A stretch of 64,000 nt of DNA, from contig OZ024745.1 in assembly GCA_964016885.1 (NCBI GenBank), positions 64,418,001 through 64,482,000 on the forward strand, in the 5' to 3' direction. Positions within the stretch are counted from its first letter, which is position 1. Each line of letters opens with the position of its first letter. A model generated the notes under the pieces. That model was not told where the DNA came from. It made no database searches and saw only the letters and a program-made list of their open reading frames with translations. This stretch comes from Eledone cirrhosa (taxonomy: Eukaryota). The position numbers were made by a program, and so were the translations under genes. Positions 1 through 26,394 of the stretch are shown here, in pieces.

Positions 1-924
1 AAAACGGAGCACCCAAATAAAAAACAGGGTACCCAAATAAAAAACGGGGCACCCAAATAAAAAACGGGGCACCCAAATAAAAAAACGGACCCCCCCATAA
101 AAAAAACTGGGCACCCAAATAAAAAACGGACCCCCCATAAAAAAACGGGGCACCCAAATAAAAAACGGGGTACCCAAATAAAAAACGGACCCTCCCCCAT
201 ATAAAAACGGGTCACCCAAATAAAAAACGGACCCCCCCATAAAAGAACGGGGCACCCAAATAAAAAACGGACCACCGCATAAAAAAACGGGGCACCCAAA
301 TAAAAAACGGACCCCCCCATAAAAGAACGGGGCACCCAAATATAAAACGGACTCCCCCATGAAAAAACGGGGCACCCAAATAAAAAACGGACACCCCCAT
401 AAAAAACGGGGCACCCAAATAAAAAACGGGGTACCCAAATAAAAAACGGACCCCCCCATAAAAAAACAGGGCACCCAAATAAAAAACTGAGCCCCCCCAT
501 GAAAAAACGGGGCACCCAAATAAAAAACGGGGTACACAAATGAAAAACGCCCCCCCATAAAAAAACGTGGCACCCAAATAAAAAACGGGGTACCCAAATA
601 AAAAACGGACCCCCCATAAAAAAATGGGGCACCCAAATAAAAAACGGACCCCCCCATAAATAAACCGGGCACCCAAATAAAAAACGGGGTACCCAAATAA
701 AATACGGACCCCCCCATAAAAACACGGGTCACCCAAATAAAAAACGGACCCCCCCATAAAAAACGGGGCACCCAAATAAAAAACGGGGTACCCAAATAAA
801 AAAAAGACCCCCCCCATAAAAAAACGAGGCACCCAAATAAAAAACGGGGTACCCAAATAAAAAACGGGGCACCCAAATAAAAAACGGGGCACCCAAATAA
901 AAAACGGGGCAACCAAATAAAAAA

Positions 925-2104: not shown

Positions 2105-3378
2105 TGGACCCCCCCATAAAAAACGGGGCACCCAAATAAAAAACGGGGTACCCAAATAAAAAACGGACCCCCCCATATAAAAACTGGGCACCCAAATAAA
2201 AAACGGGGTACCCAAATAAAACCGGACCCCCCCCGTAAAAAAAGGGGCACCCAAATAAAAAACGGGGTACACAAATGAAAAACGCCCTCCCCCATAAAAA
2301 AACGGGGCACCCAAATAAAAAACGGGGTACCCAAATAAAAAACGGACCCCCCATAAAAAAATGGGGCACCCAAATAAAAAACGGACCCCCCATAAAAAAA
2401 CCGGGCACCCAAATAAAGAACGGGGTACCCAAATAAAATACGGACCCCCATAAAAACACGGGTCACCCAAATAAAAAACGGACCCCCCATAAAAAAACGG
2501 GGCACCCAAGTAAAAAACGGGGTACCCAAATAAATAACGAACCCCCCCATAAAAAAACGAGGCACCCAAATAAAAAACGGGGTACCCAAATAAAAAACGG
2601 AGCACCCAAATAAAAAACGGGGCACACTAATAAAAAATGGATCCCCCAAATAAAAAATGGATCCCCCAAATAAAAAATGGATCACCCAAATAAAAAATGG
2701 ATCCCATAAATAAAAAATGGATCACCCAAATAAAAAATGGATCACCCAAATAAAAAATGGATCCCCCAAATAAAAAATGGATCACCCAAATAAAAAATGG
2801 ATCACCCAAATATAAAATGGATCCCTCAAATAAAAAATGGATCACCCAAATAAAAAATGGATCACCCAAATAAAAAATGGATGCCCCAAATAAAAAATGG
2901 ATCACCCAAATAAAAAATGGATCACCCAAATAAAAAATGGATCCCCCAAATAAGAAATGGATCACCCAAATAAAAAATGGATCACCGAAATAAAAAATGG
3001 ATCCGCCAAATAAAAAATGGATCCCCCAAATAAAAAATGGATCACCCAAATAAAGAATGGATCACCCAAATAAAAAAATGGATCACCCAAATAAAAAATG
3101 GATCACCCAAATAAAAAATGGATCACCCAAATAAAAAATGGATCCCCCAAATAAAAAATGGATCCCCCAAATAAAAAATGGATCACCCAAATAAAAAATG
3201 GATCACCCAAATAAAAAATGGATCCCCCAAATAAAAAATGGATCCCCCAAATAAAAAATGGACCCCCCAAATAAAAAATGGATCCCCCAAATAAAAAATG
3301 GATCCCCCAAATAAAAAATGGATCACCCAAATAAAAAATGGATCACCCAAATAAAAAATGAATCCCCCAAATAAAAAA

Positions 3379-4460
3379 TGGACCCCCCCATAAAAAATCG
3401 GTGCACCCAAATAAAAAACGGACCCCTCCATAAAAAAACGGGGCACCCAAATAAAAAACGGGGTACCCAAATAAAAAACGGACCCTCCCATAAAAAAACG
3501 GAGCACCCAAATAAAAAACAGGGTACCCAAATAAAAAACGGGGCACCCAAATAAAAAACGGGGCACCCAAATAAAAAAACGGACCCCCCCTAAAAAAACG
3601 GGGCACCCAAATAAAAAACGGACACCCCCATAAAAAACGGGGCACCCAAATAAAAAACGGGGTACCCAAATAAAAAACGGACCCTCCCCCATATAAAAAC
3701 GGGGCACCCAAATAAAAAACGGACCCCCCATAAAAGAACGGGGCACCCAAATAAAATACGGAAGCCGCATAAAAAAACGGGGCACCCAAATAAAAAACGG
3801 ACCCCCCCATAAAAGAACGGGACACCCAAATAAAAAACGGACCCCCCCATGAAAAAACGGGGCACCCAAATAAAAAACGGACACCCCCATAAAAAAACGG
3901 GGCACCCAAATAAAAAACGGGGTACCCAAATAAAAAACGGACCCCCCCCATAAAAAAACGGGGCACCCAAATAAAAAACGGGGTACCCAAATAAACAACG
4001 GACACCCCCATAAAAAACGAGGCACCCAAATAAAAAACGGGGTACCCAAATAAAAGACGGACCCCCCCATAAAAAAACGGGACACACAAATAAAGAACGA
4101 GGTACCCAAATAAAAAACGGACCCCCCCATAAAAAAACGGGTCACCCAAATAAAAAACGGGGTACCCAAATAAGAAACGGACCCCCCCATAAAAATACGG
4201 GTCACCCAAATAAAAAACGGGGTACCCAAATAAAAAACGGACCCTCCCCATAAAAAAACGGGGCACCCAAATAAAAAACGGACCCTCCCCATAAAAAAAC
4301 GGGGCACCCAAATAAAAAACGGACCCCACCATATAAAAACGGGGCACCCGAATAAAAAACGGGGTACCCAAATAAGAAACGGAACCCCCCGTAAAAAAAC
4401 GGGGCACCCAAATAAAAAACGGGGTACCCAAATAAAAAACGGGGCACCCAAATAAAAAAA
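3379..4460 (+). repeat. Representative family B domain: monomers B1 CGGGGCACCCAAATAAAAAA, B2 CGGGGTACCCAAATAAAAAA, B3 CGGACCCCCCCATAAAAAAA
   Basis: Same 20-bp frame as family A but C instead of T before GG and a different core; monomers ordered as B1-B2-B3 or B1-B3 (e.g. 3898-4000). Confidence 0.93.
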
Positions 4461-4524
4461 TGGATCACCCAAATAAAAAATGGATCCCCCAAATAAAAAA
4501 TGGTTCCGCCAAATAAAAAAGGGA

Positions 4525-5478
4525 TCCATTTTTTATTTGGGTGATCCATTCTTTATTTGGGTGATCCATTTTTTATTTGGGTGATCCATTTTTCATTTGG
4601 GTGATCCATTTTTTATTTGGGGGATCCATTTTTTATTTGGGGGATCCATTTTTTATTTGCGTGATCCATTTTTTATTTGGGGGATCCATTTTTTATTTGG
4701 GGGATCCATTTTTTATTTGGGTGATCCATTTTTTATTTGGGTGATCCATTTTTTATTTTGGGGATCCAGATTTTATTTGGGTGATCCATTTTTTATTTGG
4801 GGGATCCATTTTTTATTTGTGTGATCCATTTTTTATTTGGATGATCCATTTTTTATTTGGGGGATCCATTTTTTATTTGGGTGATCCATTTTTTATTTGG
4901 GGGATCCTTTTTTTATTTGGGGGATCCATTTTTTATTTGGGTGATCCATTTTTTATTTGGGTGATCCATTTTTTATTTGGGGGTTCCATTTTTTATTTGG
5001 GGGATCCATTTTTTATTTGGGGGATCCATTTTTTATTTGGGTGATCCATTTTTTATTTGGGTGATCCATTTTTTATTTGGGGGATCCATTTTTTATTTGG
5101 GTGATCCATTTTTTATTTGTGGGATCCATTTTTTATTTGGGTGATCCATTTTTTATTTGGGGATCCACTTTTTATTTGGGTGATCCATTTTTTATTTGGG
5201 TGATCCATATTTTAATTGGGGGATCCATTTTTTATTTGGGTGATCCATTTTTTATTTGGGTGATCCATTTTTTATTTGGGGGATCCATTTTTTATTTGGG
5301 TGATCCATTTTTTATTTGGGTGATCCATTTTTTATTTGGGGGATCTATTTTTTATTTGGGTTATCCATTTTTTATTTGGGTGATCCATTTTTTATTTGGG
5401 TGATCCATTTTTTATTTGGGGGATCCATTTTTTATTTGGGTGATCCATTTTTTATTTGGGTGATCCATTTTTTATTTG
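4525..5478 (-). repeat. Inverted family A cassette 1 (about 954 bp)
   Basis: Polarity flips at aaataaaaaagGGATCCattttttattt (GGATCC 4522-4527) and flips back at ttatttgatGGATCCccaaaataaaaa (GGATCC 5481-5486). Confidence 0.97.
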
Positions 5479-7125
5479 ATGGATCCCCAAAATAAAAATG
5501 GAACCCCCAAATAAAAAATGGATCCCTCAAATAAAAAATGAACCCCCCAAATAAAAAATGGATCCCCCAAATAAAAAATGGATCGCCCAAATAAAAAATG
5601 GATCACCCAAATAAAAAATGGATCACCCAAATAAAAAATGGATCCCCCAAGTAAAAAATGGATCACCCAAATAAAAAATGGATCCCCCAATTAAAAAATG
5701 GATCTCCCAAATAAAAAATGGATCACCCAAATAAAAAATGGATCCCCCAAATAAAAAATGGGTCACCCAAATAAAAAATGGATCACCCAAATAAAAAATG
5801 GATCCCCCAAATAAAAAATGGATCAGCCAAATAAAAAATGGATCACCCAAATAAAAAATGGATCCCCTAAATAAAAAATGGATCACCCAAATTAAAAATG
5901 GATCCCCCAAATAAAAAATGGATCACCCAAATAAAAAATGGATCACCCAAATAAAAAATGAATCCCCCAAATAAAAAATGGACCCCCCCATAAAAAATCG
6001 TCGCACCCAAATAAAAAACGGACCCCTCCATAAAAAAACGGGGCACCCAAATAAAAAACGGGGTACCCAAATAAAAAACGGACCCCCCCATAAAAAAACG
6101 GAGCACCCAAATAAAAAACAGGGTACCCAAATAAAAAACGGGGCACCCAAATAAAAAACGGGGCACCCAAATAAAAAAACGGACCCCCCTAAAAAAACGG
6201 GGCACCCAAATAAAAAACGGACACCCCCATAAAAAACGGGGCACCCAAACAAAAAACGGGGTACCCAAATAAAAAACGGACCCTCCCCCATATAAAAACG
6301 GGGCACCCAAATAAAAAACGGACCCCCCATAAAAGAACGGGGCACCCAAATAAAATACGGACCGCCGCATAAAAAAACGGGGCACCCAAATAAAAAACGG
6401 ACCCCCCCATAAAAGAACGGGACACCCAAATAAAAAACGGACCCCCCCATGAAAAAACGGGGCACCCAAATAAAAAACGGACACCCCCATAAAAAAACGG
6501 GGCACCCAAATAAAAAACGGGGTACCCAAATAAAAAACGGACCCCCCCCATAAAAAAACGGGGCACCCAAATAAAAAACGGGGTACCCAAATAGTAAACG
6601 GACACCCCCATAAAAAACGAGGCACCCAAATAAAAAACGGGGTACCCAAATAAAAGACGGACCCCCCCATAAAAAAACGGGACACACAAATAAAGAACGA
6701 GGTACCCAAATAAAAAACGGACCCCCCCATAAAAAAACGGGTCACCCAAATAAAAAACGGGGTACCCAAATAAGAAACGGACCCCCCCATAAAAAAAACG
6801 GGTCACCCAAATAAAAAACGGGGTACCCAAATAAAAAACGGACCCTCCCCATAAAAAAAAGGGGCACCCAAATAAAAAACGGACCCTCCCCATAAAAAAA
6901 CGGGGCACCCAAATAAAAAACGGACCTCCCCATATAAAAACGGGGCACCCGAATAAAAAACGGGGTACCCAAATAAAAAACGGAACCCCCCGTAAAAAAA
7001 CGGGGCACCCAAATAAAAAACGGGGTACCCAAATAAAAAACGGGGCACCCAAATAAAAAAATGGATCACCCAAATAAAAAATGGATCCCCCAAATAAAAA
7101 ATGGTTCCGCCAAATAAAAAAGGGA

Positions 7126-8119
7126 TCCATTTTTTATTTGGGTGATCCATTCTTTATTTGGGTGATCCATTTTTTATTTGGGTGATCCATTTTTCATTTG
7201 GGTGATCCATTTTTTATTTGGGGGATCCATTTTTTATTTGGGGGATCCATTTTTTATTTGCGTGATCCATTTTTTATTTGCGGGATCCATTTTTTATTTG
7301 GGGGATCCATTTTTTATTTGGGTGATCCCTTTTTTATTTGGGTGATCCATTTTTTATTTTGGGGATCCAGTTTTTATTTGGGTGATCCATTTTTTATTTG
7401 GGGGATCCATTTTTTATTTGTGTGATCCATTTTTTATTTGGGTGATCCATTTTTTATTTGGGGGATCCATTTTTTATTTGGGTGATCCATTTTTTATTTG
7501 GGGGATCCTTTTTTTATTTGGGGGATCCATTTTTTATTTGGGTGATCCATTTTTTATTTGGGTGATCCATTTTTTATTTGGGGGTTCCATTTTTTATTTG
7601 GGGGATCCATTTTTTATTTGGGGGATCCATTTTTTATTTGGGTGATCCATTTTTTATTTGGGTGATCCATTTTTTATTTGGGGGATCCATTTTTTATTTG
7701 GGTGATCCATTTTTTATTTGTGGGATCCATTTTTTATTTGGGTGATCCATTTTTTATTTGGGGATCCACTTTTTATTTGGGTGATCCATTTTTTATTTGT
7801 GTGATCCATATTTTATTTGGGGGATCCATTTTTTATTTGGGTGATCCATTTTTTATTTGGGTGATCCATTTTTTATTTGGGGGATCCATTTTTTATTTGG
7901 GTGATCCATTTTTTATTTGGGTGATCCATTTTTTATTTGGGGGATCCATTTTTTATTTGGGTTATCCATTTTTTATTTGGGTGATCCATTTTTTATTTGG
8001 GGGATCCATTTTTTATTTGGGGGATCCATTTTTTATTTGGGTGATCCATTTTTTATTTGGGGGATCCATTTTTTATTTGGGTGATCCATTTTTTATTTGC
8101 GTGATCCATTTTTTATTTG
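7126..8119 (-). repeat. Inverted family A cassette 2 (about 994 bp)
   Basis: Same two junction sequences (GGATCC at 7123-7128 and 8122-8127); entry junction is 2,601 bp from that of cassette 1. Confidence 0.97.
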
Positions 8120-10642
8120 ATGGATCCCCAAAATAAAAATGGAACCCCCAAATAAAAAATGGATCCCCCAAATAAAAAATGGATCACCCAAATAAAAAAT
8201 GGATCCCCCAAATAAAAAATTGATCACCCAAATAAAAAATGGATCACCCAAATAAAAAATGGATCCCCTAAATAAAAAATGGATCACCCAAATAAAAAAT
8301 GGATCCCCCAAATAAAAAATGGATCACCCATATAAAAAATGAATCCTCCAAATAAAAAATGGACCCACCCCATAAAAAATCGGTGCACCCAAATAAAAAA
8401 ACGGACCCCTCCATAAAAAACGGGGCACCCAAATAAAAAACGGGGTACCCAAATAAAAAACGGACCCCCCCATAAAAACACGGGTCACCCAAATAAAAAA
8501 CGGGGTACACAAATGAAAAACGCCCTCCCCCATAAAAAAACGGGGCACCCAAATAAAAAACAGGGTACCCAAATAAAAAACGGGGCACCCAAATAAAAAA
8601 CGGGGCACCCAAATAAAAAAACGGAACCCCCATAAAAAAAACTGGGCACCCAAATAAAAAACGGACCCCCCCATAAAAAAACGGGGCACCCAAATAAAAA
8701 ACGGCGTACCCAAATAAAAAACGGACCCTCCCCCATATAAAAACGGGGCACCCAAATAAAAAACGGCGTACCCAAATAAAAAACGGACCCTCCCCCATAA
8801 AAGAACGGGGCACCCAAATAAAAAACGGACACCCCCATAAAAAGACGGGGCACCCAAATAAAAAACGGGGTACCCAAATAAAAAACGGACCCCCCCATAA
8901 AAAAACGGGGCACCCAAATAATTAACTGAGCCCCCCCATAAAAAAACGGGGCACCCAAATAAAAAACGGGGTACACAAATGAAAAACGCCCCCCCATAAA
9001 AAAACGTGGCACCCAAATAAAAAACGGGGTACCCAAATAAAAAACGGACCCCCCATAAAAAAATGGGGCACCCAAATAAAAAACGGACCCCCCCATAAAT
9101 AAACCGGGCACCCAAATAAAAAACGGGGTACCCAAATAAAATACGGACGCCCCCATAAAAACACGGGTCACCCAAATAAAAAACGGACCCCCCCCATAAA
9201 AAAACGGGGCACCCAAATAAAAAACGGGGTACCCAAATAAAAAAAAGACCCCCCTATAAAAAAACGAGGCACCCAAATAAAAAACGGGGTACCCAAATAA
9301 AAAACGGGGCACCCAAATAAAAAACGGGGCACCAAAATAAAAAACGGGGCAACCAAATAAAAAACGGGGTACCCAAATAAAAAACGGACCCTCCCCATAA
9401 AAAAACGGGGCACCCAAATAAAAAACGGACCCCCCATATAAAAACGGGGCACCCGAATAAAAAACGGGGTACCCAAATAAAAAACGGACCCCCCGTAAAA
9501 AAACGGGGCACCCAAATAAAAAATGGATCTCCCAAATAAAAAATGGATCACCCAAATAAAAAATGGATCCCCCAAATAAAAAATGGATCACCCAAATAAA
9601 AAATGGATCACCCAAATGAAAAATGGATCCCCCAAATAAAAAACCGGGCACCCGAATAAAAAATGGATCCCCCAAATAAAAAATGGATCCTCCAAATAAA
9701 AAATGGATCCACCAAATAAAAAATGGATCCCCCAAATATAAAATGGATCCCCCAAATAAAAAATGGATCCCCCAAATAAAAAATGGATCACCCAAATAAA
9801 AAATGGATCCCCCAAATAAAAAATGGATCACCCAAATAAAAAATGGATCCCCCAAATAAAAAATGAATCCCCAAGTAAAAAATGGATCACCCAAATAAAA
9901 AATGGATCACCCAATTAAAAAATGGATCTCCCAAATAAAAAATGGATCACCCAAATAAAAAATGGATCCCCCAAATAAAAAATGGGTCACCCAAATAAAA
10001 AATGGATCACCCAAATAAAAAATGGATCCCCCAAATAAAAAATGGATCACCCAAATAAAAAATGGATCACCCAAATAAAAAATGGATCCCCTAAATAAAA
10101 AATGGATCACCCAAATAAAAAATGGATCCCCCAAATAAAAAATTGATCACCCAAATAAAAAATGGATCACCCAAATAAAAAATGGATCCCCTAAATAAAA
10201 AATGGATCACCCAAATTAAAAATGGATCCCCAAAATAAAAAATTGATCACCCAAATAAAAAATGGATCACCCAAATAAAAAATGGATCCCCCAAATAAAA
10301 AATGGATCACCCATATAAAAAATGGATCCCCCAAATAAAAAATGGATCACCCAAATAAAAAATGGATCACCCAAATAAAAAATGGATCCCCTAAATAAAA
10401 AATGGATCACCCAAATAAAAAATGGATCCCCCAAATAAAAAATTGATCACCCAAATAAAAAATGGATCACCCAATTAAAAAATGGATCCCCTAAATAAAA
10501 AATGGATCACCCAAATTAAAAATGGATCCCCAAAATAAAAAATTGATCACCCAAATAAAAAATGGATCACCCAAATAAAAAATGGATCCCCCAAATAAAA
10601 AATGGATCACCCATATAAAAAATGAATCCTCCAAATAAAAAA

Positions 10643-12269
10643 TGGACCCCCCCCCCATAAAAAATCGGTGCACCCAAATAAAAAACGGACCCGTCCATAA
10701 AAAAACGGGGCACCCAAATAAAATACGGGGTACCCAAATAAAAAACGGACCCCCCCATAAAAAAACGGAGCACCCAAATAAAAAACAGGGTACCCAAATA
10801 AAAAACGGGGCACCCAAATAAAAAACGGGGCACCCATATAAAAAAACGGACCCCCCATAAAAAAACGGGGCACCCAAATAAAAAACGGACCCCCCCATAA
10901 AAAAACGGGGCACGCAAATAAAAAACGGGGTACCCAAATAAAAAACGGACCCTCCCCCATATAAAAACGGGGCACCCAAATAAAAAACGGACCCCCCCAT
11001 AAAAGAACGGGGCACCCAAATAAAAAACGGACCACCGCATAAAAAAACGGGGCACCCAAATAAAAAACGGACCCCCCCATAAAAGAACGGGGCACCCAAA
11101 TAAAAAACGGACTCCCCCATGAAAAAACGGGGCACCCAAATAAAAAACGGACACCCAAATAAAAAAACGGGGCACCCAAATAAAAAACGGGGTACCCAAA
11201 TAAAAAACGGACCCCCCCATAAAAAAACGGGGCACCCAAATAAAAAACTGAGCCCCCCCATAAAAAACGGGGCACCCAAATAAAAAACGGGGTACACAAA
11301 TGAAAAACGCCCCCCCCCCCATAAAAAAACGTGGCACCCAAATAAAAAACGGGGTACCCAAATAAAAAACGGACCCCCCATAATAAAATGGGGCACCCAA
11401 ATAAAAAACGGACCCCCCCATAAATGAACCGGGCACCCAAATAAAAAACGGGGTACCCAAATAAAATACGGACCCCTCCATAAAAACACGGGTCACCCAA
11501 ATAAAAACCGTCCCCTCCATAAAAAAACGGGGCACCCAAATAAAAGACGGGGTACCCAAATAAAAAAAAGACCCCCCCATAAAAAAACGAGGCACCCAAA
11601 TAAAAAAAGGGGTACCCAAATAAAAAACGGGGCACCCAAATAAAAAACGGGGCACCCAAATAAAAAACGGGGCAACCAAATAAAAAACGGGGTACCCAAA
11701 TAAAAAACGGACCCTCCCCATAAAAAAACCGGGGCACCCAAATAAAAAACGGACACCCCATATAAAAACGGGGCACCCGAATAAAAAACGGGGTACCCAA
11801 ATAAAAAACGGACCCCCCCGTAAAAGAACGGGGCACCCAAATAAAAAACGGGGTACACAAATGAAAAACGCCCTCCCCCATAAAAAACGGGGTACCCAAA
11901 TAAAAAACGGACCCCCCATAAAAAAATGGGGCACCCAAATTAAAAACGGACCCCCCCCCATAAAAAAAACCGGGCACCCAAATAAAAAACGAGGTACCCA
12001 AATAAATAACGGACCCCCCCATAAAAAACGAGGCACCCAAATAAAAAACGGGGTACCCAAATAAAAAACGGGGCACCCAAATAAAAAACGGGACACCCAA
12101 ATAAAAAACGGGGCAACCAAATAAAAAACGGGGTACCCAAATAAAAAACGGACCCTCCCCATAAAAAAACGGGGCACCCAAATAAAAAACGGACCCCCCA
12201 TATAAAAACGGGGCACCCGAATAAAAAAAAGGGATACCCAAATAAAAAACGGACCCCCCCGTAAAAAAA
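10643..12269 (+). repeat. Longest family B domain (about 1.6 kb)
   Basis: Continuous B1/B2/B3 monomers. Shares private variants with 1-924 and 13288-14473, e.g. ggtacacaaatgaaaaacgcccc and cgtggcaccc; ggaccaccgcat is shared with 1-924. Confidence 0.9.
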
Positions 12270-15200
12270 TGGATCACCCAAATAAAAAATGGATCCCCCA
12301 AATAAAAAATGGATCACCCAAATAAAAAATGGATCACCCAAATGAAAAATGGATCCCCCAAATAAAAAACCGGGCACCCAAATGAAAAATGGATCCCCCA
12401 AATAAAAAATGGATCCTCCAAATAAAAAATAGATCACCCAAATAAAAAATGGATCCACCAAATAAAAAATGGATCCCCCAAATATAAAATGGATCCCCCA
12501 AATAAAAAATGGATCCCCCAAATAAAAAATGGATCACCCAAATAAAAAATGGATCCCCCAAATAAAAAATGGATCACCCATAAAAAAATGGATCCCCCAA
12601 ATAAAAAATGGATCCCCAAGTAAAAAATGGATCACCCAAATAAAAAATGGATCACCCAATTAAAAAATGGATCTCCCAAATAAAAAATGGATCACCCAAA
12701 TAAAAAATGGATCCCCCAAATAAAAAATGGGTCACCCAAATAAAAAATGGATCACCCAAATAAAAAATGGATCCCCCAAATAAAAAATGGATCACCCAAA
12801 TAAAAATGGATCACCCAAATAAAAAATGGATCCCCTAAATAAAAAATGGATCACCCAAATTAAAAATGGATCCCCAAAATAAAAAATTGATAACCCAAAT
12901 AAAAAATGGATCACCCAAATAAAAAAATGGATCCCCCAAATAAAAAATGGATCACCCATATAAAAAATGGATCCCCCAAATAAAAAATGGATCACCCAAA
13001 TAAAAAATGGTTCACCCAAATAAAAAATGGATCCCCTAAATAAAAAATGGATCACCCAAATAAAAAATGGATCCCCCAAATAAAAAATTGATCACCCAAA
13101 TAAAAAATGGATCACCCAAATAAAAAATGGATCCCCTAAATAAAAAATAGATCACCCAAATTAAAAATGGATCCCCAAAATAAAAAATTGATCACCCAAA
13201 TAAAAAATGGATCACCCAAATAAAAAATGGATCCCCCAAATAAAAAATGGATCACCCATATAAAAAATGAATCCTCCAAATAAAAAATGGACCCCCCCCC
13301 CATAAAAAATCGGTGCACCCAAATAAAAAACGGACCCCTCCATAAAAAAACGGGGCACCCAAATAAAATACGGGGTACCCAAATATAAAACGGACCCCCC
13401 CCCATAAAAAAACGGAGCATCCAAATAAAAAACAGGGTACCCAAATAAAAAACGGGGCACCCAAATAAAAAACGGGGCACCCATATAAAAAAACGGACCC
13501 CCCCATAAAAAAACGGGGCACCCAAATAAAAAACGGACCCCCCCATAAAAGAACGGGGCACCCAAATAAAAAACGGACTCCCCCATGAAAAAACGGGGCA
13601 CCCAAATAAAAAACGGACACCCCCGTAAAAAAACGGGGCACCCAAATAAAAAACGGGGTACCCAAATAAAAAACGGACCCCCCCATAAAAAAACGGGGCA
13701 CCCAAATAAAAAACGGGGTACACAAATGAAAAACGCCCCCCCCCCCCACATAAAAAAACGTGGCACCCAAATAAAAAACGGGGTACCCAAATAAAAAACG
13801 GACCCCCCATAAAAAAATGGGGCACCCAAATAAAAAACGGACCCCCCATAAATAAACCGGGCACCCAAATAAAAAACGGGGTACCCAAATAAAATACGGA
13901 CCCCTCCATAAAAACACGGGTCACCCAAATAAAAACCGTCCCCCCCATAAAAAAACGGGGCACCCAAATAAAAAACGGGGTACCCAAATAAAAAAAAGAC
14001 CCCCCCATAAAAAAACGAGGCACCCAAATAAAAAACGGGGTACCCAAATAAAAAACGGGGCACCCAAATAAAAAACGGGGCACCCAAATAAAAAACGGGG
14101 CAACCAAATAAAAAACGGGGTACCCAAATAAAAAACGGACCCTCCCCATAAAAAAACCGGGGCACCCAAATAAAAAACGGACACCCCATATAAAAACGGG
14201 GCACCCGAATAAAAAACGGGATACCCAAATAAAAAACGGACCCCCCCGTAAAAGAACGGGGCACCCAAATAAAAAACGGGGTACACAAATGAAAAACGCC
14301 CTCCCCCATAAAAAACGGGGTACCCAAATAAAAAACGGACCCCCCATAAAAAAATGGGGCACCCAAATTAAAAACGGACCCCCCCATAAAAAACGAGGCA
14401 CCCAAATAAAAAACGGGGTACCCAAATAAAAAACGGGGCACCCAAATAAAAAACGGGGCACACTAATAAAAAATGGATCCCCCAAATAAAAAATGGATCC
14501 CCCAAATAAAAAATGGATCACCCAAATAAAAAATGGATCACCCAAATAAAAAATGGATCACCCAAATAAAAAATGGATCACCCAAATATAAAATGGATCC
14601 CTCAAATAAAAAATGGATAACCCAAATAAAAAATGGATCACCTAAATAAAAAATGGATCACCGAAATAAAAAATGGATCCGCCAAATAAAAAATGGATCC
14701 CCCAAATAAAAAATGGATCACCCAAATAAAAAATGGATCGCCCAAATAAAAAATGGATCCCCCAAATAAAAAATGGATCACCCAAATGAAAAATGGATCC
14801 CCCAAATAAAAAAATGGATCCCCCAAATAAAAAATGGATCCCCCAAATAAAAAATGGATCCCCCAAATAAAAAAAGGATCCTCTAAATAAAAAATGGATC
14901 ACCCAAATAAAAAATGGATCCACCAAATAAAAAATGGATCCCCCAAATAAAAAATGGATCCCCCAAATAAAAAATGGATCCCCCAAATAAAAAATGGATC
15001 ACCCAAATAAAAAATGGATCCCCCAAATAAAAAATGGATCACCCAAATAAAAAATGGATCACCCAAATAAAAAATGGATCCCCAAGTAAAAAATGGATCA
15101 CCCAAATAAAAAATGGATCACCCAATTAAAAAATGGATCTCCCAAATAAAAAATGGATCACCCAAATAAAAAATGGATCCCCCAAATAAAAAATGGGTCA

Positions 15201-18200
15201 CCCAAATAAAAAATGGATCACCCAAATAAAAAATGGATCCCCCAAATAAAAAATGGATCCCCAAAATAAAAAAATTGATCACCCAAATAAAAAATGGATC
15301 ACCCAAATAAAAAATGGATCCCCCAAATAAAAAATGGATCACCCATATAAAAAATGAATCCCCCAAATAAAAAATGGACCCCTCCATAAAAAAACGGGGC
15401 ACCCAAATAAAAAACGGGGTACCCAAATAAAAAACGGACCCCCCCATAAAAAAACGGAGCACCCAAATAAAAAACAGGGTACCCAAATATAAAACGGGGC
15501 ACCCAAATAAAGAAACGGACCCCCCCCCATAAAAAAAACGGGGCTCCCAAATAAAAACGGACCCCCCCATAAAAAAACGGGGCACCCAAATAAAAAACGG
15601 GGTACCCAAATAAAAAACGGACCCTCCCCCATATAAAAACGGGGCACCCAAATAAAAAACGGACCCCCCCATAAAAGAACGGGGCACCCAAATAAAAAAC
15701 GGACCACCGCATAAAAAAACGGGGCACCCAAATAATAAAACGGGGCACCCAAATAAAAAACGGGGTACCCAAACAAAAAACGGACCCCCGTAAAAAAAAC
15801 GGGGTACACAAATAAAAAACGGATCCCCCCATATAAAAACGGGGCACCCGAATAAAAACCGGGGTACCCAAATAAAAAACGGACCCCCCCCCCGTAAAAA
15901 AACGGGGCACCCAAATAAAAAACGGTGTAGCCAAATAAAATACGGACCCCCCCATAAAAACACGGGTCACCCAAATAAAAAACGGACCCCCCCATAAAAG
16001 AACGGGGCACCCAAATAAAAAACGGGGTACCCAAATAAAAAACGGGGCACCCAAATAAAAAACGGGGCACACTAATAAAAAATGGATCCCCCAAATAAAA
16101 AATGGATCCCCCAAATAAAAAATGGATCCCCCAAATAAAAAATGGATCCCCCAAATAAAAAATGGATCCTCCAAATAAAAAATGGATCACCCAAATAAAA
16201 AATGGATCCACCAAATAAAAAATGGATCCCCCAAATAAAAAATGGATCCCCCAAATAAAAAATGGATCCCCCAAATAAAAAATGGATCGCCCAAATAAAA
16301 AATGGATCCCCCAAATAAAAAATGGATCACCCAAATAAAAAATGGATCACCCAAATAAAAAATGGATCCCCAAGTAAAAAATGGATCACCCAAATAAAAA
16401 ATGGATCACCCAATTAAAAAAATGGATCTCCCAAATAAAAAATGGATCCCCCAAATAAAAAATGGGTCACCCAAATAAAAAATGGATCACTCAAATAAAA
16501 AATGGATCCCCCAAATAAAAAATGGATCACCCAAATAAAAAATGGATCACCCAAATAAAAAATGGATCCCCTAAATAAAAAATGGATCACCCAAATTAAA
16601 AATGGATCCCCCAAATAAGAAATGGATCACCCAAATAAAAAATGGATCACCCAAATAAAAAATGGTTCCCCCAAATAAAAAATGGATCCCCAAAATAAAA
16701 ATATTGATCACCCAAATAAAAAATGGATCACCCAAATAAAAAATGGATCCCCCAAATAAAAAATGGATCACCCATATAAAAAATGAATCTCCCAAATAAA
16801 AAATGGACCCCCCCATAAAAAATCGGTACACCCAAATAAAAAACGGACCCCTCCATAAAAAAACGGGGCACCCAAATAAAAAACGGGGTACCCAAATAAA
16901 AAACGGACCCCCCCATAAAAAAACGGAGCACCCAAATAAAAAACAGGGTACCCAAATAAAAAATGGATCACCCAAATAAAAAATGGATCCCCTAAATAAA
17001 AAATGGATCACCCAAATAAAAAATGGATCCCCCAAATAAAAAATGGATCACCCAAATAAAAAATGGATCCCCAAAATAAAAAAATTGATCACCCAAATAA
17101 AAAATGGATCACCCAAATAAAAAATGGATCCCCCAAATAAAAAATGGATCACCCATATAAAAAATGAATCCCCCAAATAAAAAATGGACCCCTCCATAAA
17201 AAAACGGGGCACCCAAATAAAAAACGGGGTACCCAAATAAAAAACGGACCCCCCCATAAAAAAACGGAGCACCCAAATAAAAAACAGGGTACCCAAATAT
17301 AAAACGGGGCACCCAAATAAAGAAACGGACCCCCCCCATAAAAAAAACGGGGCTCCCAAATAAAAACGGACCCCCCCATAAAAAAACGGGGCACCCAAAT
17401 AAAAAACGGGGTACCCAAATAAAAAACGGACCCTCCCCCATATAAAAACGGGGCACCCAAATAAAAAACGGACCCCCCCCATAAAATAACGGGGTACCCA
17501 AATAAAAAACGGACCACCGCATAAAAAAACGGGGCACCCAAATAAAAAACGGGGCACCCAAATAAAAAACGGGGTACCCAAATAAAAAACGGACCCCCGT
17601 AAAAAAACGGGGTACCCAAATAAAAAACGGATCCCCCCATACAAAAACGGGGCACCCGAATAAAAACCGGGGTACCCAAATAAAAAACGGACCCCCCCGT
17701 AAAAAAACGGGGCACCCAAATAAAAAACGGACCCCCCATAAAAAAATGGGGCACCCAAGTAAAAAACGGACCCCCCCCATAAAAAAACCGGGCACCCAAA
17801 TAAGAAACGGTGTAGCCAAATAAAATACGGACCCCCCCATAAAAAATCGGTACACCCAAATAAAAAACGGACCCCTCCATAAAAAAACGGGGCACCCAAT
17901 TAAAAAACGGGGTACCCAAATAAAAAACGGACCCCCCCATAAAAAAACGGAGCACCCAAATAAAAAACAGGGTACCCAAATAAAAAATGGATCACCCAAA
18001 TAAAAAATGGATCCCCTAAATAAAAAATGGATCACCCAAATTAAAAATGGATCCCCCAAATAAAAAATGGATCACCCAAATAAAAAATGGATCACCCAAA
18101 TAAAAAATGGATCCCCCAAATAAAAAATGGATCACCCAAATAAAAAATGGATCCCCAAAATAAAAAAATTGATCACCCAAATAAAAAATGGATCACCCAA

Positions 18201-21200
18201 ATAAAAAATGGATCCCCCAAATAAAAAATGGATCACCCATATAAAAAATGAATCCCCCAAATAAAAAATGGACCCCCCCATAAAAAATTTGTGCACCCAA
18301 ATAAAAAACGGACCCCTCCATAAGAAAACGGGGCACCCAAATAAAAAACGGGGTACCCAAATAAAAAACGGACCCCCCCATAAAAAAACGGAGCACCCAA
18401 ATAAAAAACAGGGTACCCAAATATAAAACGGGGCACCCAAATAAAAAAACCGACCCCCCCCATAAAAAAACGGAGCTCCCAAATAAAAAACGGACCCCCC
18501 CATAAAAAAACGGGGCACCCAAATAAAAAACGGGGTACCCAAATAAAAAACGGACCCTCCCCCATATAAAAACGGGGCACCCAAATAAAAAACGGACCCC
18601 CCCTTAAAAGAACGGGGCACCCAAATAAAAAACGGACCACCGCATAAAAAAACGGGGCACCCAAATAAAAAACGGACCCCCCCATAAAAGAACGGGGCAC
18701 CCAAATAAAAAACGGGGCACCCAAATAAAAAACGGGGTACCCAAATAAAAACGGACCCCCCATAAAAAAAACGGGGCAACCAAATAAAAAACGGGGTACC
18801 CAAATAAAAAACGGACCCTCCCCATAAAAAACGGGACACCCAAATAAAAAATGGACCCCCCCATATAAAAACGGGGCACCCGAATAAAAACCGGGGTACC
18901 CAAATAAAAAACGCACCCCCCCGTAAAAAAACGGGGCACCCAAATAAAAAACGGGGTACACAAATGAAAAACGCCCTCCCCCATAAAAAAACTGGGCACC
19001 CATATAAAAAACGGGGTACCCAAATAAAAAACGGACTCCCCATAAAAAAATGGGGCACCCAAGTAAAAAATGAACCCCCCCCATAAAAAAAGGGCACCCA
19101 AATAAAAAACGGTGTACCCAAATAAAATACGGACCCCCCCATAAAAACACGGGTCACCCAAATAAAAAACAGACCCCCCCATAAAAAAACGGGGCACCCA
19201 AATTAAAAACGGGGTACCCAAATAAATAACGGAACCCCCATAAAAAAACGAGGCACCCAAATAAAAAACGGGGTACCCAAATAAAAAACGGGGCACCCAA
19301 ATAAAAAACGGGGCACACAAATAAAAAATGGATTCCCCAAATAAAAAATGGATCCCCCAAATAAAAAATGGATCCCCCAAATAAAAAATGGATCCCCCAA
19401 ATAAAAAATGGATCCCCCAAATAAAAAATGGATCCTCCAAATAAAAAATGGATCACCCAAATAAAAAATGGATCCACCAAATAAAAAATGGATCCCCCAA
19501 ATAAAAAATGGATCCCCCAAATAAAAAAAGGATCCCCCAAATAAAAAATGGATCACCCAAATAAAAAATGGATCCCCCAAATAAAAAATGGATCCCCAAA
19601 ATAAAAATATTGATCACCCAAATAAAAAATGGATCACCCAAATAAAAAATGGATCCCCCAAATAAAAAATGGATCACCCATATAAAAAATGAATCCCCCA
19701 AATAAAAAATGGACCCCCCCATAAAAAATCGGTGCACCCAAATAAAAAACGAACCCCTCCATAAAAAAACGGGGCACCCAAATAAAAAACGGGGTACCCA
19801 AATAAAAAACGGAACCCCCCATAAAAAAACGGAGCACCCAAATAAAAAACAGGGTACCCAAATAAAAAATGGATCACCCAAATAAAAAATGGATCCCCTA
19901 AATAAAAAATGGATCACCCAAATTAAAAATGGATCCCCCAAATAAAAAATGGATCACCCAAATAAAAAATGGATCACCCAAATAAAAAATGGATCCCCCA
20001 AATAAAAAATGGATCACCCAAATTAAAAATGGATCCCCAAAATAAAAAAATTGATCACCCAAATAAAAAATGGATCACCCAAATAAAAAATGGATCCCCC
20101 AAATAAAAAATGGATCACCCATATAAAAAATGAATCCCCCAAATAAAAAAACCGACACCCCCATAAAAAAACGGAGCTCCCAAATAAAAAACGGACCCCC
20201 CCATAAAAAAACGGGGCACCCAAATAAAAAACGGGGTACCCAAATAAAAAACGGACCCTCCCCCATATAAAAACGGGGCACCCAAATAAAAAACGGACCC
20301 CCCCTTAAAAGAACGGGGCACCCAAATAAAAAACGGACCACCGCATAAAAAAACGGGGCACCCAAATAAAAAACGGACCCCCCCATAAAAGAACGGGGCA
20401 CCCAAATAAAAAACGGGGCACCCAAATAAAAAACGGGGTACCCAAATAAAAACGGACCCCCCATAAAAGAAACGGGGCAACCAAATAAAAAACGGGGTAC
20501 CCAAATAAAAAACGGACCCTCCCCATAAAACACGGGACACCCAAATAAAAAATGGACCCCCCCATATAAAAACGGGGCACCCGAATAAAAACCGGGGTAC
20601 CCAAATAAAAAACGCACCCCCCCGTAAAAAAACGGGGCACCCAAATAAAAAACGGGGTACACAAATGAAAAACGCCCTCCCCCATAAAAAAACGGGGCAC
20701 CCAAATAAAAAACGGGGTACCCAAATAAATAACGGAACCCCCATAAAAAAACGAGGCACCCAAATAAAAAACGGGGTACCCAAATAAAGAACGGGGCACC
20801 CAAATAAAAAACGGGGCACACAAATAAAAGATGGATTCCCCAAATAAAAAATGGATCCCCCAAATAAAAAATGGATCCCCCAAATAAAAAATGGATCCCC
20901 CAAATAAAAAATGGATCCCCCAAATAAAAAATGGATCCTCCAAATAAAAAATGGATCACCCAAATAAAAAATGGATCCACCAAATAAAAAATGGATCCCC
21001 CAAATAAAAAATGGATCCCCCAAATAAAAAAAGGATCCCCCAAATAAAAAATGGATCACCCAAATAAAAAATGGACCCCCAAATAAAAAATGGATCACCC
21101 AAATTAAAAATGGATCCCCCAAATAAAAAATGGATCACCCAAATAAAAAATGGATCACCCAAATAAAAAATGGATCCCCAAAATAAAAAATTGATCACCC

Positions 21201-22515
21201 AAATAAAAAATGGATCACCCAAATAAAAAATGCATCCCCCAAATAAAAAATGGATCACCCATATAAAAAATGAATCCCCCAAATAAAAAATGGACCCCCC
21301 CATAAAAAATCGGTGCACCCAAATAAAAAACGGACCGCTCCATAAAAAAACGGGGCACCCAAATAAAAAACGGGGTACCCAAATAAAAAACGGACACCCC
21401 CATAAAAAAACGGAGCACCCAAATAAAAAACAGGGTACCCAAATAAAAAACGGGGCACCCAAATAAAAAACGGGGCACCCAAATAAAAAAACGGACCCCC
21501 CCATAAAAAAACGGGGCACCCAAATAAAAAACGGACACACACATAAAAAAACGGGGCACCCAAATAAAAAACGGGGTACCCAAATAAAAAACGGATCCTC
21601 CCCCAAATAAAAAATGGATCCCCAAAATAAAAAATTGATCACCCAAATAAAAAATGGATCACCCAAATAAAAAATGGATCCCCCAAATAAAAAATGGATT
21701 ACCCAAATAAAAAATGGATCACCCAAATAAAAAATGGATCCCCCAAATAAAAAATGGATCCCCAAATAAAAAATGGATCCCACAAATAAAAAATGGATCA
21801 CCCAAATAAAAAACGGACCCCCCATAAAAGAACGGGGCACCCAAATAAAAAACGGACCGCCGCATAAAAAAACGGGGCACCCAAATAAAAAATGGACCCC
21901 CCCATAAAAGAACGGGACACCCAAATAAAAAACGGACCCCCCCATGAAAAAACGGGGCACCCAAATAAAAAACGGACACCCCCATAAAAAAACGGGGCAC
22001 CCAAATAAAAAACGGGGTACCCAAATAAAAAACGGACCCCCCCATAAAAAAACGGGGCACCCAAATAAAAAACGGGGTACCCAAATAAAAAACGGACACC
22101 CCCATAAAAAACGAGGCACCCAAATAAAAAACGTGGAACCCAAATAAATAGCGGACCCCCCCATAAAAAAACGGGACACACAAATAATGAACGAGGTACC
22201 CAAATAAAAAACGGACCCCCCATAAAAAAACGGGTCACCCAAATAAAAAACGGACCCTCCCCATAAAAAAACGGGGCACCCAAATAAAAAACGGACCCCC
22301 CCATATAGAAACGGGGCACCCGAATAAAAAGCGGGGTACCCAAATAAAGAACGGAACCCCCCGTAGAAAAACGGGGCACCCAAATAAAAAACGGGGTACG
22401 CAAATAAAAAACGGGGTACCCAAATAAAAAACGGGGCACCTAAATAAAAAATGGATCAGCCAAATAAAAAATGGATCCCCCAAATAAAAAATGGTTCCGC
22501 CAAATAAAAAAGGGA

Positions 22516-23527
22516 TCCATTTTTTATTTGGGTGATCCATTCTTTATTTGGGTGATCCATTTTTTATTTGGGTGATCCATTTTTCATTTGGGTGATCCAT
22601 TTTTTATTTGGGGGATCCATTTTTTATTTGGGGGATCCATTTTTTATTTGGGTGATCCATTTTTTATTTGGGGGATCCATTTTTTATTTGGGGGATCCAT
22701 TTTTTATTTGGGTGATCCATTTTTTATTTGGGTGATCCATTTTTTATTTTGGGGATCCAGTTTTTATTTGGGTGATCCATTTCTTTGGGGGGGTCCATTT
22801 TTTATTTGTGTGATCCATTTTTTATTTGGGTGATCCATTTTTTATTTGGGGGATCCATTTTTTATTTGGGTGATCCATTTTTTATTTGGGGGATCCTTTT
22901 TTTATTTGGGGGGTCCATTTTTTATTTGGGGGATCCATTTTTTATTTGGGTGATCCATTTTTTATTTGGGGGTTCCATTTTTTATTTGGGGGATCCATTT
23001 TTTATTTGGGGGATCCATTTTTTATTTGTGTGATCCATTTTTTATTTGGGTGATCCATTTTTTATTTGGGGGATCCATTTTTTATTTGGGTGATCCATTT
23101 TTTATTTGTGGGATCCATTTTTTATTTGGGTGATCCATTTTTTATTTGGGGATCCACTTTTTATTTGGGTGATCCATTTTTTATTTGTGTGATCCATATT
23201 TTATTTGGGGGATCCATTTTTTATTTGGGTGATTCATTTTTTATTTGGGTGATCCTTTTTTTATTTGGGGGATCCATTTTTTATTTGGGTGATCCATTTT
23301 TTATTTGGGTGATCCATTTTTTATTTGGGGGATCCATTTTTTATTTGGGTTATCCATTTTTTATTTGGGTTATCCATTTTTTATTTGGGTGATCCATTTT
23401 TTATTTGGGTGATCCATTTTTTATTTGGGGGATCCATTTTTTATTTGGGGGATCCATTTTTTATTTGGGTGATCCATTTTTTATTTGGGGGATCCATTTT
23501 TTATTTGGGTGATCCATTTTTTATTTG
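22516..23527 (-). repeat. Inverted family A cassette 3 (about 1,012 bp)
   Basis: Same junctions (GGATCC at 22513-22518 and 23530-23535) and the same internal markers (attcttt, ttttcattt, ccactttt, catatttt, gttatcc). Confidence 0.97.
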
Positions 23528-24517
23528 ATGGATCCCCAAAATAAAAATGGAACCCCCAAATAAAAAATGGATCCCCCAAATAAGAAATGGATCACCCAAA
23601 TAAAAAATGGATCCCCCAAATAAAAAATTGATCACCCAAATAAAAAATGGATCACCCAAATAAAAAATGGATCCCCTAAATAAAGAATGGATCACCCAAA
23701 TTAAAAATGGATCCCCAAAATAAAAAATGGACCCCTCCATAAAAAAACGGCGCACCCAAATAAAAAACGGTGTACCCAAATCAAAAACGGACATCCCCAT
23801 AAAAAAACGGAGCACCCAAATGAAAAACAGGGTACCCAAATAAAAAACGGGGCACCCAAATAAAAAACGGGGCACCCAAATAAAAAAACGTACCTCCCCA
23901 TAAAATAAACTGTGCACACAAATAAGAAACGGACCCCCCCATAAAAAAACGGGGCACCCAAATAAAAAACGGCGTACCCAAATAAAAAACGGACCCTCCC
24001 CCATATAAAAACGGGGCACCCAAATAAAAAACGGACCCCCCATAAAAGAACGGGGCACCCAAATAAAAAACGGACCACCGCATAAAAAAACGGGGCACCC
24101 AAATAAAAAACGGGGTACCCAAATAAAAAACGGGGTACCCAAATAAAAAAACGGACCCCCCCATAAAAAAACGGGTCACCCAAATAAAAAACGGGGTACC
24201 CAAATAAAAAACGGACCCTCCCCATATAAAAACGGGGCACCCAAATAAAAAACGGACCCTCCCCATAAAAGAACGGGGCACCCAAATAAAAAACGGACCC
24301 CCCCATATAGAAACGGGGCACCCGAATAAAAAACGGGGTACCCAAATAAAAAACGGAACCCCCCGTAGAAAAACGGGGCACCCAAATAAAAAACGGGGTA
24401 CGCAAATAAAAAACGGGGTACCCAAATAAAAAACGGGGCACCCAAATAAAAAATGGATCACCCAAATAAAAAATGGATCCCCCAAATAAAAAATGGTTCC
24501 GCCAAATAAAAAAGGGA

Positions 24518-25311
24518 TCCATTTTTTATTTGGGTGATCCATTCTTTATTTGGGTGATCCATTTTTTATTTGGGTGATCCATTTTTCATTTGGGTGATCC
24601 ATTTTTTATTTGGGGGATCCATTTTTTATTTGGGGGATCCATTTTTTATTTGGGTGATCCATTTTTTATTTGGGGGATACTTTTTTTATTTGGGGGATCC
24701 ATTTTTTATTTGGGTGATCCATTTTTTATTTGGGTGATCCATTTTTTATTTGGGGGTTCCATTTTTTATTTGGGGGATCCATTTTTTATTTGGGGGATCC
24801 ATTTTTTATTTGGGTGATCCATTTTTTATTTGGGTGATCCATTTTTTATTTGGGGGATCCATTTTTTATTTGGGTGATCCATTTTTTATTTGTGGGATCC
24901 ATTTTTTATTTGGGTGATCCATTTTTTATTTGGGGATCCACTTTTTATTTGGGTGATCCATTTTTTATTTGGGTGATCCATATTTTATTTGGGGGATCCA
25001 TTTTTTATTTGGGTGATCCATTTTTTATTTGGGTGATCCATTTTTTATTTGGGGGATCCATTTTTTATTTGGGTGATCCATTTATTATTTGGGTGATCCA
25101 TTTTTTATTTGGGGGATCCATTTTTTATTTGGGTTATCCATTTTTTATTTGGGTGATCCATTTTTTATTTGGGTGATCCATTTTTTATTTGGGGGATCCA
25201 TTTTTTATTTGGGGGGTCCATTTTTTATTTGGGTGATCCATTTTTTATTTGGGGGATCCATTTTTTATTTGGGTGATCCATTTTTTATTTGGGTGATCCA
25301 TTTTTTATTTG
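24518..25311 (-). repeat. Inverted family A cassette 4 (about 794 bp, internally shortened)
   Basis: Entry GGATCC at 24515-24520, 2,002 bp after that of cassette 3. Exit junction reads ttatttgatGGAACCccaaaa at ~25311, with the core mutated. Confidence 0.96.
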
Positions 25312-25810
25312 ATGGAACCCCAAAATAAAAATGGAACCCCCAAATAAAAAATGGATCCCCCAAATAAAAAATGGATCACCCAAATAAAAAATGGATCCCC
25401 CAAATAAAAAATTGATCACCCAAATAAAAAATGAATCCTCCAAATAAAAAATGGACCCACCCCATAAAAAATCGGTGCACCCAAATAAGAAACGGACCCC
25501 TCCATAAAAAAACGGCGCACCCAAATAAAAAACGGGGTACCCAAATAAAAAACGGACATCCCCATAAAAAAACGGAGCACCCAAATGAAAAACAGGGTAC
25601 CCAAATAAAAAACGGGGCACCCAAATAAGAAACGGGGCACCCAAATAAAAAAACGTACCTCCCCATAAAAAAACTGGGCACCCAAATAAGAAACGGACCC
25701 CCCCATAAAAAAACGGGGCACCCAAATAAAAAACGGCGTACCCAAATAAAAAACGGACCCTCCCCCATATAAAAACGGGGCACCCAAATAAAAAACGGAC
25801 CCCCCATAAA

Positions 25811-25830
25811 AGAACGGGGGATCCATTTTT
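25811..25830. other. Major array polarity switch: family B (A-rich on +) joined to family A (T-rich on +)
   Basis: cataaaagaacGGGG-gatccattttttatt; the G run at 25816-25820 fits both parental monomers (CGGGGCACCC and TTTGGGGGATCC). Confidence 0.95.
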
Positions 25831-26394
25831 TATTTTGGGTGATCCATTTTTTATTAGGGGAATCCATTTTTTATTTGGGTGATCCATTTTTATTTGTAGA
25901 TCCATTTTTTAATTGGGGGATCCATTTTTTATTTAGTTGATCCATTTTTTAATTGGGTGATCCATTTTTTATTTGGGGGATCCATTTTTTATTTGGGGGA
26001 TCCATTTTTTATTTGGGGGATCCATTGTTTATTTGGGTGATCCATTTTTTATTTGGGTGATCCATTTTTTATTTGGGGGATTCATTTTTTATTTGGGTGA
26101 TCCATTTTTTATTTGGGTGATCCATTTTTTATTTGGGTGATCCATTTTTTATTTGTGGGATCCATTTTTTATTTGGGGGATCCATTTTTTATTTGGGTGA
26201 TCCATTTTTTAATTGGGTGATCCATTTTTTATTTGGGGGATCCATTTTTTATTTGGGTGATCCATTTTTTATTTGGGTGGTCCATTTTTTATTTGGGTGA
26301 TCCATTTTTTATTTGGGGGATCCATTTTTTATTTGGGTGATCCATTTTTTATTTGGGGATCCATTTTTTATTTGAGTGATCCATTTTTTATTTG

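What the first reader, a model, noticed from the sequence alone, without database searches (positions are those of the whole stretch)
4461..25330. Invertible-looking cassette with both ends in register on the monomer's own GGATCC palindrome, then amplified four times
Seen: each of the four inverted blocks starts at AAATAAAAAAg-GGATCC-aTTTTTTATTT and ends at TTATTT-gat-GGATCC-cca-AAATAA (GGAACC in copy 4). A conservative flip between two G-type monomers through their GGATCC cores predicts AAAAAAT-GGATCC-ATTTTTT and TTATTT-GGG-GGATCC-CCC-AAATAA. The observed junctions have exactly this spacing, with no gain or loss of bases at the core. All four blocks share the junction variants and internal markers but differ in length (about 954, 994, 1,012 and 794 bp). 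Inference: one precise inversion through the palindromic core, by microhomology exchange or cut-and-flip at self-complementary GATC ends, was later propagated as part of a higher-order unit. The monomer therefore carries a built-in inversion site.
Basis: partly seen in the sequence, partly recalled or inferred. Interest (0 to 1): 0.72.

Follow-up and report, generated by a model that had tools for sequence, protein, structure and literature searches.

The report
Copied inversion scars in satellite DNA
Four back-to-front blocks in a 20-base satellite repeat share one pair of joints with about a thousand other joints on two chromosomes, so they are likely copies of a single old inversion rather than proof of a built-in flipping site; this is an ordinary kind of satellite turnover.

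Summary
The four inverted blocks are real and in register on GGATCC, but the window holds a ninth switch (25816-25820) that is 3 bp off register, and four more cassettes lie upstream. The joints are not clean: the right one carries GAT where GGG is predicted. The predicted clean head-to-head joint occurs 0 times in the 3.0-Gb genome. The same two joints, with the same rare neighbouring variants, occur about 1,030 times in 1.61 Mb examined, nearly all on chromosome C1. So the cassette likely descends from one old event and was spread by tandem duplication, re-inversion between ordinary monomers and transfer between chromosomes. Of 29 other junction classes, 6 lie at the core within 1 bp of register (7 of 30 with the main pair, p about 0.15). 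None sits on the longer GGGTACCC palindrome, of which there are 4,150 copies. A "built-in inversion site" is therefore not supported as a hotspot; the palindrome may have guided the founding event. This scan reported the same reading for this 20-bp repeat on other DNA (e1-9953286, e1-9524284). Closest known: conserved satellite inversion sites of Tribolium.

The parts
1..25815 (+). Mixed zone of a 20-bp satellite: alternating blocks of A-type (GGATC core) and B-type (CGGGGC/CGGAC/CGGGGTACC) monomers, interrupted by four inverted cassettes
4462..4521 (+). Three A-type monomers, the last with the rare GGTTCCGCC variant, in front of the left joint; shared by all 8 C5 cassettes (GAC in two), GC-variant shared with C1 joints
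4512..4538 (.). Left (tail-to-tail) joint, copy 1; core at 4522; G in place of T before the core
4522..5486 (-). Inverted cassette 1, 959 bp core to core, A-type monomers only
5472..5495 (.). Right (head-to-head) joint, copy 1; core at 5481; GAT in place of GGG; followed by a GGAACC monomer
   Evidence: a short-read contig spans this type
7123..8127 (-). Inverted cassette 2, 999 bp; tandem partner of cassette 1 (period 2,601 bp)
22513..23535 (-). Inverted cassette 3, 1,017 bp
24515..25319 (-). Inverted cassette 4, 799 bp; right core mutated to GGAACC; tandem partner of cassette 3 (period 2,002 bp)
25816..25824 (.). Ninth, unrelated strand switch: B-type plus monomer joined to the large minus array, 3 bp off register, GGGG overlap
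   Evidence: not bridged by any listed contig or read
25819..64000 (-). Start of a pure A-type minus array, sampled as far as about 1.06 Mb downstream without any strand switch

Best explanation
The four blocks are tandem copies of one inverted cassette whose two joints are shared with about a thousand joints on chromosome C1, so they likely descend from a single old inversion and not from repeated use of a built-in site. Shown: the cassette, its fixed flanks, the shared G and GAT signatures and neighbour variants, and the copy numbers. Inferred steps: (1) one founding rearrangement joined plus and minus monomers in register at GGATCC, the longest stretch that the two strands share (6 bp; 8-9 bp if one partner was the GGATCCATC variant monomer that exists on C1); (2) once both orientations were present, ordinary homologous exchange between monomers flipped and resized blocks without making new joints; (3) unequal exchange or slippage multiplied the joints, and a patch holding both was carried between chromosomes, likely from C1 to C5, where it was duplicated with its B-type flank to 8 copies. 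The cassette is most likely a passenger with no function.
For: Signature constancy: 524 of 593 head-to-head switches held carry exactly GAT and about 20 more a one-letter derivative; 485 of 522 tail-to-tail switches are the in-register type, 267 with G. Rare neighbour variants: GC[C/T] one monomer before the left joint in 7 of 7 C5 and 80 of 153 C1 G-type joints, GGAAC one monomer after the right joint in 8 of 8 C5 and 55 of 206 C1 joints, against 1 and 2 of 3,658 monomers in the switch-free array (on the loci held then). Location: 237 of 241 forward and 229 of 231 reverse exact matches lie in three C1 clusters and this window. Re-orientation without new joints: in C1:279 Mb 113 of 159 neighbouring G-type pairs are in mixed orientation, on C5 0 of 12. 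No hotspot: clean head-to-head joint 0 genome-wide; 0 switches at 2,778 GGATCC sites in the adjacent array; 0 joints on GGGTACCC among 2 + 9 B-type hits despite 4,150 such monomers. The reconstructed parent site exists 10 times on C1.
Against: The perfect tail-to-tail form (T; 188 of 485) lacks the G and its GC neighbour, and could be ancestral, reverted or the product of separate in-core events; I could not separate these. Core-centred classes may be mildly enriched: 4 of 30 at strict register, p = 0.06 against a uniform 1 in 20. Two near-clean head-to-head types (C1:295.35 Mb, 2 copies; C1:295.457 Mb, 1 copy) and one on C4 (3 copies) sit on the core in register. Fewer than a third of C1 right joints carry the GGAAC neighbour, so descent of all of them rests on GAT alone. 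No donor for the cassette interior was found, so the direction C1 to C5 is inferred only from numbers and diversity. The GGATCCATC monomers may be derived from the joints rather than their parent.
Confidence: 0.75

Rival explanations
1. Built-in inversion site: the GGATCC palindrome in the monomer is used again and again for precise flips.
For: GGATCC is the longest match between the strands in any register (6 bp against at most 3-5); the dominant joints sit on it; 188 perfect tail-to-tail joints could hide separate events; 3 minor classes also sit on the core in register.
Against: 0 exact clean head-to-head joints; 23 of 29 other classes are elsewhere; 0 switches at 2,778 sampled sites next door; the 8-bp B-type palindrome is never used.
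Confidence: 0.1
2. On the founding event only: two staggered breaks with 9-nt overhangs were rejoined through the central GGATCC, leaving the mismatched flanking bases (1 on the left, 2 on the right); this equals 9 bp lost at one end and 9 bp duplicated inverted at the other.
For: All three deviant bases equal the opposite-strand consensus (1 in 27 if they were random substitutions; sequence). Staggered-break inversions with inverted duplications are described in Drosophila (PMC7584159, passages).
Against: Equal stagger at both ends follows arithmetically from both being in register, so it is no extra evidence; one event only; G before the core is a standing variant (51 in the loci that gave 3,658 monomers) and GGATCCATC monomers exist, which allows a clean crossover in variant monomers.
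Confidence: 0.25
3. On the founding event only: an inverted piece of 20k-1 bp was inserted into a break in the A run by end joining without microhomology, and the register is a 1-in-20 coincidence.
For: Read at face value, both switch points lie 1-2 bp outside the core with no overlap; other classes show no excess overlap over random joins (13 of 28 with 2 bp or more, null 46%, a noisy measure that includes three artefactual values).
Against: Needs the register to be chance; landing in the best-matching register is better explained by pairing at GGATCC.
Confidence: 0.2
4. The joints are kept or spread by selection, as hairpin or cruciform formers or protein sites, as proposed for Tribolium inversion sites.
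For: One pair outnumbers all others about 15 to 1 in the stretches held; each joint folds as a hairpin (z -5.2 and -6.5).
Against: Any strand switch folds so (ninth switch z -3.4); joints are confined to a few clusters and absent from a megabase array of the same repeat; cores decay freely (GGAACC, CGATCC, GGATCA in 5 of 8 C5 cassettes).
Confidence: 0.1
5. Assembly artefact.
For: No long read could be laid; the ninth switch was not bridged.
Against: Cassettes differ by 1.2-7.3% and in length; a contig of run X8 spans the right joint (5449-5523, depth 99) and loose ends show both left-joint forms (X8 and X9 are one sample and may be the assembly's own).
Confidence: 0.04

Closest known systems
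[quoted passage not shown]
   Same: A few junction types, each with its own deviant letters, copied thousands of times (2,044, 3,486 and 6,428 sites at 98% or more identity) and mixed across contigs; the authors allow that conservation may reflect the spreading mechanism.
   Different: There the monomers are 225 and 704 bp, the arrays cover all chromosomes and are likely pericentromeric; here a 20-bp monomer, paired joints around 0.04-2 kb blocks, found in three C1 clusters and one C5 zone; centromere link untested.
Conserved inversion points of Tribolium freemani TfSat01/TfSat03 (PMC12581902; abstract and passages read)
   Same: Same inversion points on non-homologous chromosomes, taken as evidence of joint spread (circular DNA or bouquet contacts).
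   Different: Circular DNA was shown by 2D gels there; nothing of the kind is tested here.
Strand switches in human HSat3 and beta-satellite arrays (bioRxiv 10.1101/2021.07.12.452052 and 10.64898/2026.07.22.740206; passages read)
   Same: Hundreds of switches in some arrays of a family and few in others; the 2026 preprint reads them as by-products of array expansion.
   Different: The passages seen do not resolve junction letters or register within the monomer.
Staggered-break and template-switch models of inversion origin in Drosophila (PMC7584159; passages read)
   Same: An inverted duplication at one end and a loss at the other can arise from staggered cuts or from repair.
   Different: Those footprints are tens to hundreds of bp in unique DNA; here 9 bp in a repeat, with several parses that fit equally.

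Membership tests
Amplified conserved satellite inversion sites (Tribolium type) | Orientation switches within arrays of one satellite | tested here: met
   9 in the window; 1,115 called in 1.61 Mb held
Amplified conserved satellite inversion sites (Tribolium type) | Few junction types, conserved and distinct from ordinary monomers | tested here: met
   about 1,030 of 1,115 switches are one pair of types with G/T and GAT signatures
Amplified conserved satellite inversion sites (Tribolium type) | Same junctions on non-homologous chromosomes | tested here: met
   C1 and C5, with shared rare neighbour variants
Amplified conserved satellite inversion sites (Tribolium type) | Confirmed on raw long reads | not testable with these tools
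   only short-read contigs and RAD-seq reads were offered
Tribolium macro-dyad (peri)centromeric arrays | Multi-megabase (peri)centromeric domains on all chromosomes, roughly symmetric subarrays | tested here: not met
   exact main tail-to-tail joints lie on C1 and C5 only (237 of 241, 229 of 231 located); cassettes are short islands; centromere position itself not tested
Site-specific invertible element (recombinase-flipped segment) | Recurrent conservative exchange at the same core, giving clean reciprocal joints | tested here: not met
   clean head-to-head joint 0 genome-wide; other classes scattered
Site-specific invertible element (recombinase-flipped segment) | Both orientations of the same segment among cells or individuals | not testable with these tools
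   needs long reads from several individuals
Microhomology-mediated inversion | Switch point inside a shared word at both ends | tested here: inconclusive
   true only if the parent was a variant monomer (present on C1); against standard monomers the switches lie 1 and 2 bp outside the core

The most novel reading that the evidence does not exclude
Inversions do recur at the monomer's palindrome, but perfect head-to-head products are purged as unstable palindromes, so only a joint with a 2-bp asymmetry, possibly the scar of a 9-nt staggered cut rejoined through GGATCC, survived and spread to hundreds of copies on two chromosomes. The array would then record a filter on palindrome centres at single-base resolution.
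Probability: 0.12. Interest if true: 0.55.

Novelty: new member of a known kind. Interest (0 to 1): 0.24.

Why it matters
As it stands it is a clear example of a known pattern: many strand switches in a satellite can be one event copied, so counting switches overstates the inversion rate and junction conservation alone is no sign of function. The shared joints are also a lineage marker that shows exchange of satellite DNA between two chromosomes. If the novel case held, it would give a natural test of which palindrome centres a germline tolerates.

Tried and rejected
Donor of the cassette interior: k-mer sharing and monomer-level alignment against local plus blocks, the adjacent minus array and four C1 sets gave scores close to shuffled controls; no donor named. 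Tree of the 8 cassettes: only the two upstream pairs are supported (0.99, 0.88); the four window copies are unresolved. Automatic overlap measure: noisy, three values are artefacts of neighbouring joints; no excess over random joins, so no claim of general microhomology use is made. Reads: RAD-seq runs X14 and X15 showed no read across the right joint and nothing listed bridged the ninth switch; contigs show presence, not absence. Hairpin folding is expected of any switch and was not used as evidence of function. Dropped from the class count: a joint with foreign DNA between the arms (L063), two joints in a tiny patch on C3:187.6 Mb, and one-letter derivatives of the main joints; C11 and C1762 were counted as one class. 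Fold-back priming at the right joint was rejected on the sequence (it would need a hairpin with no loop). Paper searches: the monomer as a text string gave 0 papers; four topic searches listed nothing on this satellite by title or abstract start. Supplements were not read; the Tribolium junction alignments lie there and might show whether those sites fall on short palindromes.
Full report
What is in the window. The whole 64 kb is a 20-bp satellite. Up to about 25.8 kb it runs on the plus strand as alternating blocks of A-type monomers (GGATC core; two main forms, with and without the full GGATCC palindrome) and B-type monomers; from there on it is a pure A-type array on the minus strand. There are nine strand switches. 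The ninth, at 25816-25820, joins a B-type monomer to the large minus array, 3 bp off register, through a GGGG overlap. The window is G000:C5:64418001-64482000 in a 3.0-Gb genome.

The joints are in register but not clean. A flip between two standard monomers predicts T before the left core and GGG before the right core. The window has G and GAT. These three letters are what the opposite strand would have there, so at face value the switches lie 1 and 2 bp before the core. In ordinary monomers of the window G occurs at that place 4 times in 2,017 and the ATC/GAT variant never; in switch-free loci downstream G is more common (51, beside 3,658 monomers counted) and ATC is again absent. Both ends being in register is a single constraint, since the two ends of a conservative flip are linked. 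GGATCC is the longest word shared by the two strands in any register, so it is also where any microhomology-driven join would be expected.

The same two joints are widespread. The exact tail-to-tail pattern has 241 forward and 231 reverse matches in the genome. I fetched 158 stretches and located 237 and 229 of them: all in three clusters on C1 (near 279.5-279.7, 295.2-295.4 and 296.15-296.57 Mb) and this window. In the 1.61 Mb held, 485 of 522 tail-to-tail switches are the in-register type (267 with G, 188 perfect with T, 30 other) and 524 of 593 head-to-head switches carry exactly GAT, about 20 more a one-letter derivative. On C5 there are 8 cassettes, not 4, all with the same B block and three A monomers in front. 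Rare variants in the neighbouring monomers tie C5 to C1: GC[C/T] before the left joint in 7 of 7 C5 and 80 of 153 C1 G-type joints; GGAAC after the right joint in 8 of 8 C5 and 55 of 206 C1 joints; background 1 and 2 in 3,658 (on the loci held at that point). On C5 the joints always keep the cassette order (12 of 12 pairs); in C1:279 Mb 113 of 159 pairs are in mixed orientation, which is what exchange between oppositely oriented ordinary monomers would give without new joints (inference).

Test of the built-in site. (a) Each new flip through the core between standard monomers must leave a clean head-to-head joint; the exact pattern occurs 0 times. Two near-clean types were seen beside the main lineage on C1 (2 copies and 1 copy), and may be derived from it. 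(b) The array that begins in this window was sampled out to about 1.06 Mb: 2,778 GGATCC sites, 0 switches. (c) Off-register searches and all-register B-type searches plus the fetched loci gave 29 other classes after the exclusions listed under Tried and rejected. Six lie at the core within 1 bp of register; with the main pair that is 7 of 30 (p = 0.15 for 3 in 20), and 4 of 30 at strict register (p = 0.06 for 1 in 20) (classes and offsets curated by hand). Two other complete cassettes on C1 (9-11 and 3 copies) use neither end on GGATCC. (d) A B-type monomer with the longer palindrome GGGTACCC has 4,150 exact copies and none of the B-type joints found uses it. Limits: the A-type searches left out in-register spacers by design; the patterns need intact flanks, so old joints are missed; and the 188 perfect tail-to-tail joints could include separate events.

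How the founding event arose is open. Three readings fit. First, a clean crossover in a variant monomer: the reconstructed parent site occurs 10 times, in a sub-array on C1 where GGATCCATC is the commonest monomer; with it the shared word grows to 8-9 bp. That sub-array could equally be derived, by collapse of a cassette to zero length. Second, two 9-nt staggered breaks rejoined through the core. Third, end joining with a chance register. I favour pairing at the palindrome (first or second) at roughly 3 to 1 over chance, and cannot rank further.

Reality of the assembly. Copies differ by 1.2-2.2% in the window and up to 7.3% across C5. A contig of run X8 spans the right joint type, and loose ends in X8 and X9 show both left forms; these are one sample, perhaps the assembly's own. 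RAD-seq reads did not cross the joint, and the ninth switch was not bridged in what was listed. No long reads were available.

Comparison. It works like the conserved inversion sites of Tribolium madens and T. freemani satellites: few junction types, many copies, several chromosomes (PMC13081366: abstract, half of section 7, passages; PMC12581902: abstract, passages). Human HSat3 and beta-satellite arrays also hold hundreds of switches, read in a 2026 preprint as by-products of expansion (passages). It is not a recombinase-type invertible element (no clean reciprocal products) and does not meet the genome-wide macro-dyad pattern. Earlier notes of this scan on other windows of the same genome reached the same reading for a 20-base repeat; my reading was written before I saw them, they are unchecked, and they gave me the Tribolium papers.

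Verdict: observation largely right, mechanism of spread right, built-in site not supported. New member of a known kind; interest 0.24.

Noticed in passing
L061-L063, L137, L138, L153 (C1:295.45-295.54 Mb): A sub-family whose main monomer is GGATCCATC..., giving a 10-bp palindrome per monomer, alternating with a 19-bp monomer; blocks are separated by about 1 kb of non-satellite DNA that recurs, and have their own head-to-head joint 4 bp off register.
   Followed up: partly
L001 around 1-200, also L005, L019 (C1:279.48-279.57 Mb): A second, unrelated inverted island of about 80 bp in 9-11 copies; its left joint is on the monomer's other dyad axis (TA in the A run, also in phase), and its right end is the reverse complement of the variant flank left of the island, as if copied from it.
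   Followed up: partly
L041 8352-9150, L043, L044 (C1:296.24-296.27 Mb): A third cassette of about 760-800 bp in 3 copies, one end with an AT overlap, the other with a short inserted AAAAT repeat.
   Followed up: partly
window 25816-64000 and L033-L039, L056-L058, L157: A pure A-type array of at least about 1.06 Mb (sampled) in opposite orientation to the mixed zone; pure B, mixed and pure A zones follow each other along C5:64.30-65.5 Mb like layers.
   Followed up: partly
L019 6000-6350; L017 120-600; L059 4900-5350: The arrays abut other satellites directly: a 19-bp repeat, a roughly 190-bp repeat, and two short degenerate repeats.
   Followed up: no
L067-L072, L099-L122 (C1:296.30-296.57 Mb): About 270 kb of minus array dotted with islands only 40-80 bp long, bounded by the GAT joint and the perfect-palindrome left joint; a candidate for the oldest form of the cassette.
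   Followed up: partly
L040 around 9156: A non-satellite inverted repeat with long AT-rich arms around a short spacer, resembling a foldback element.
   Followed up: no
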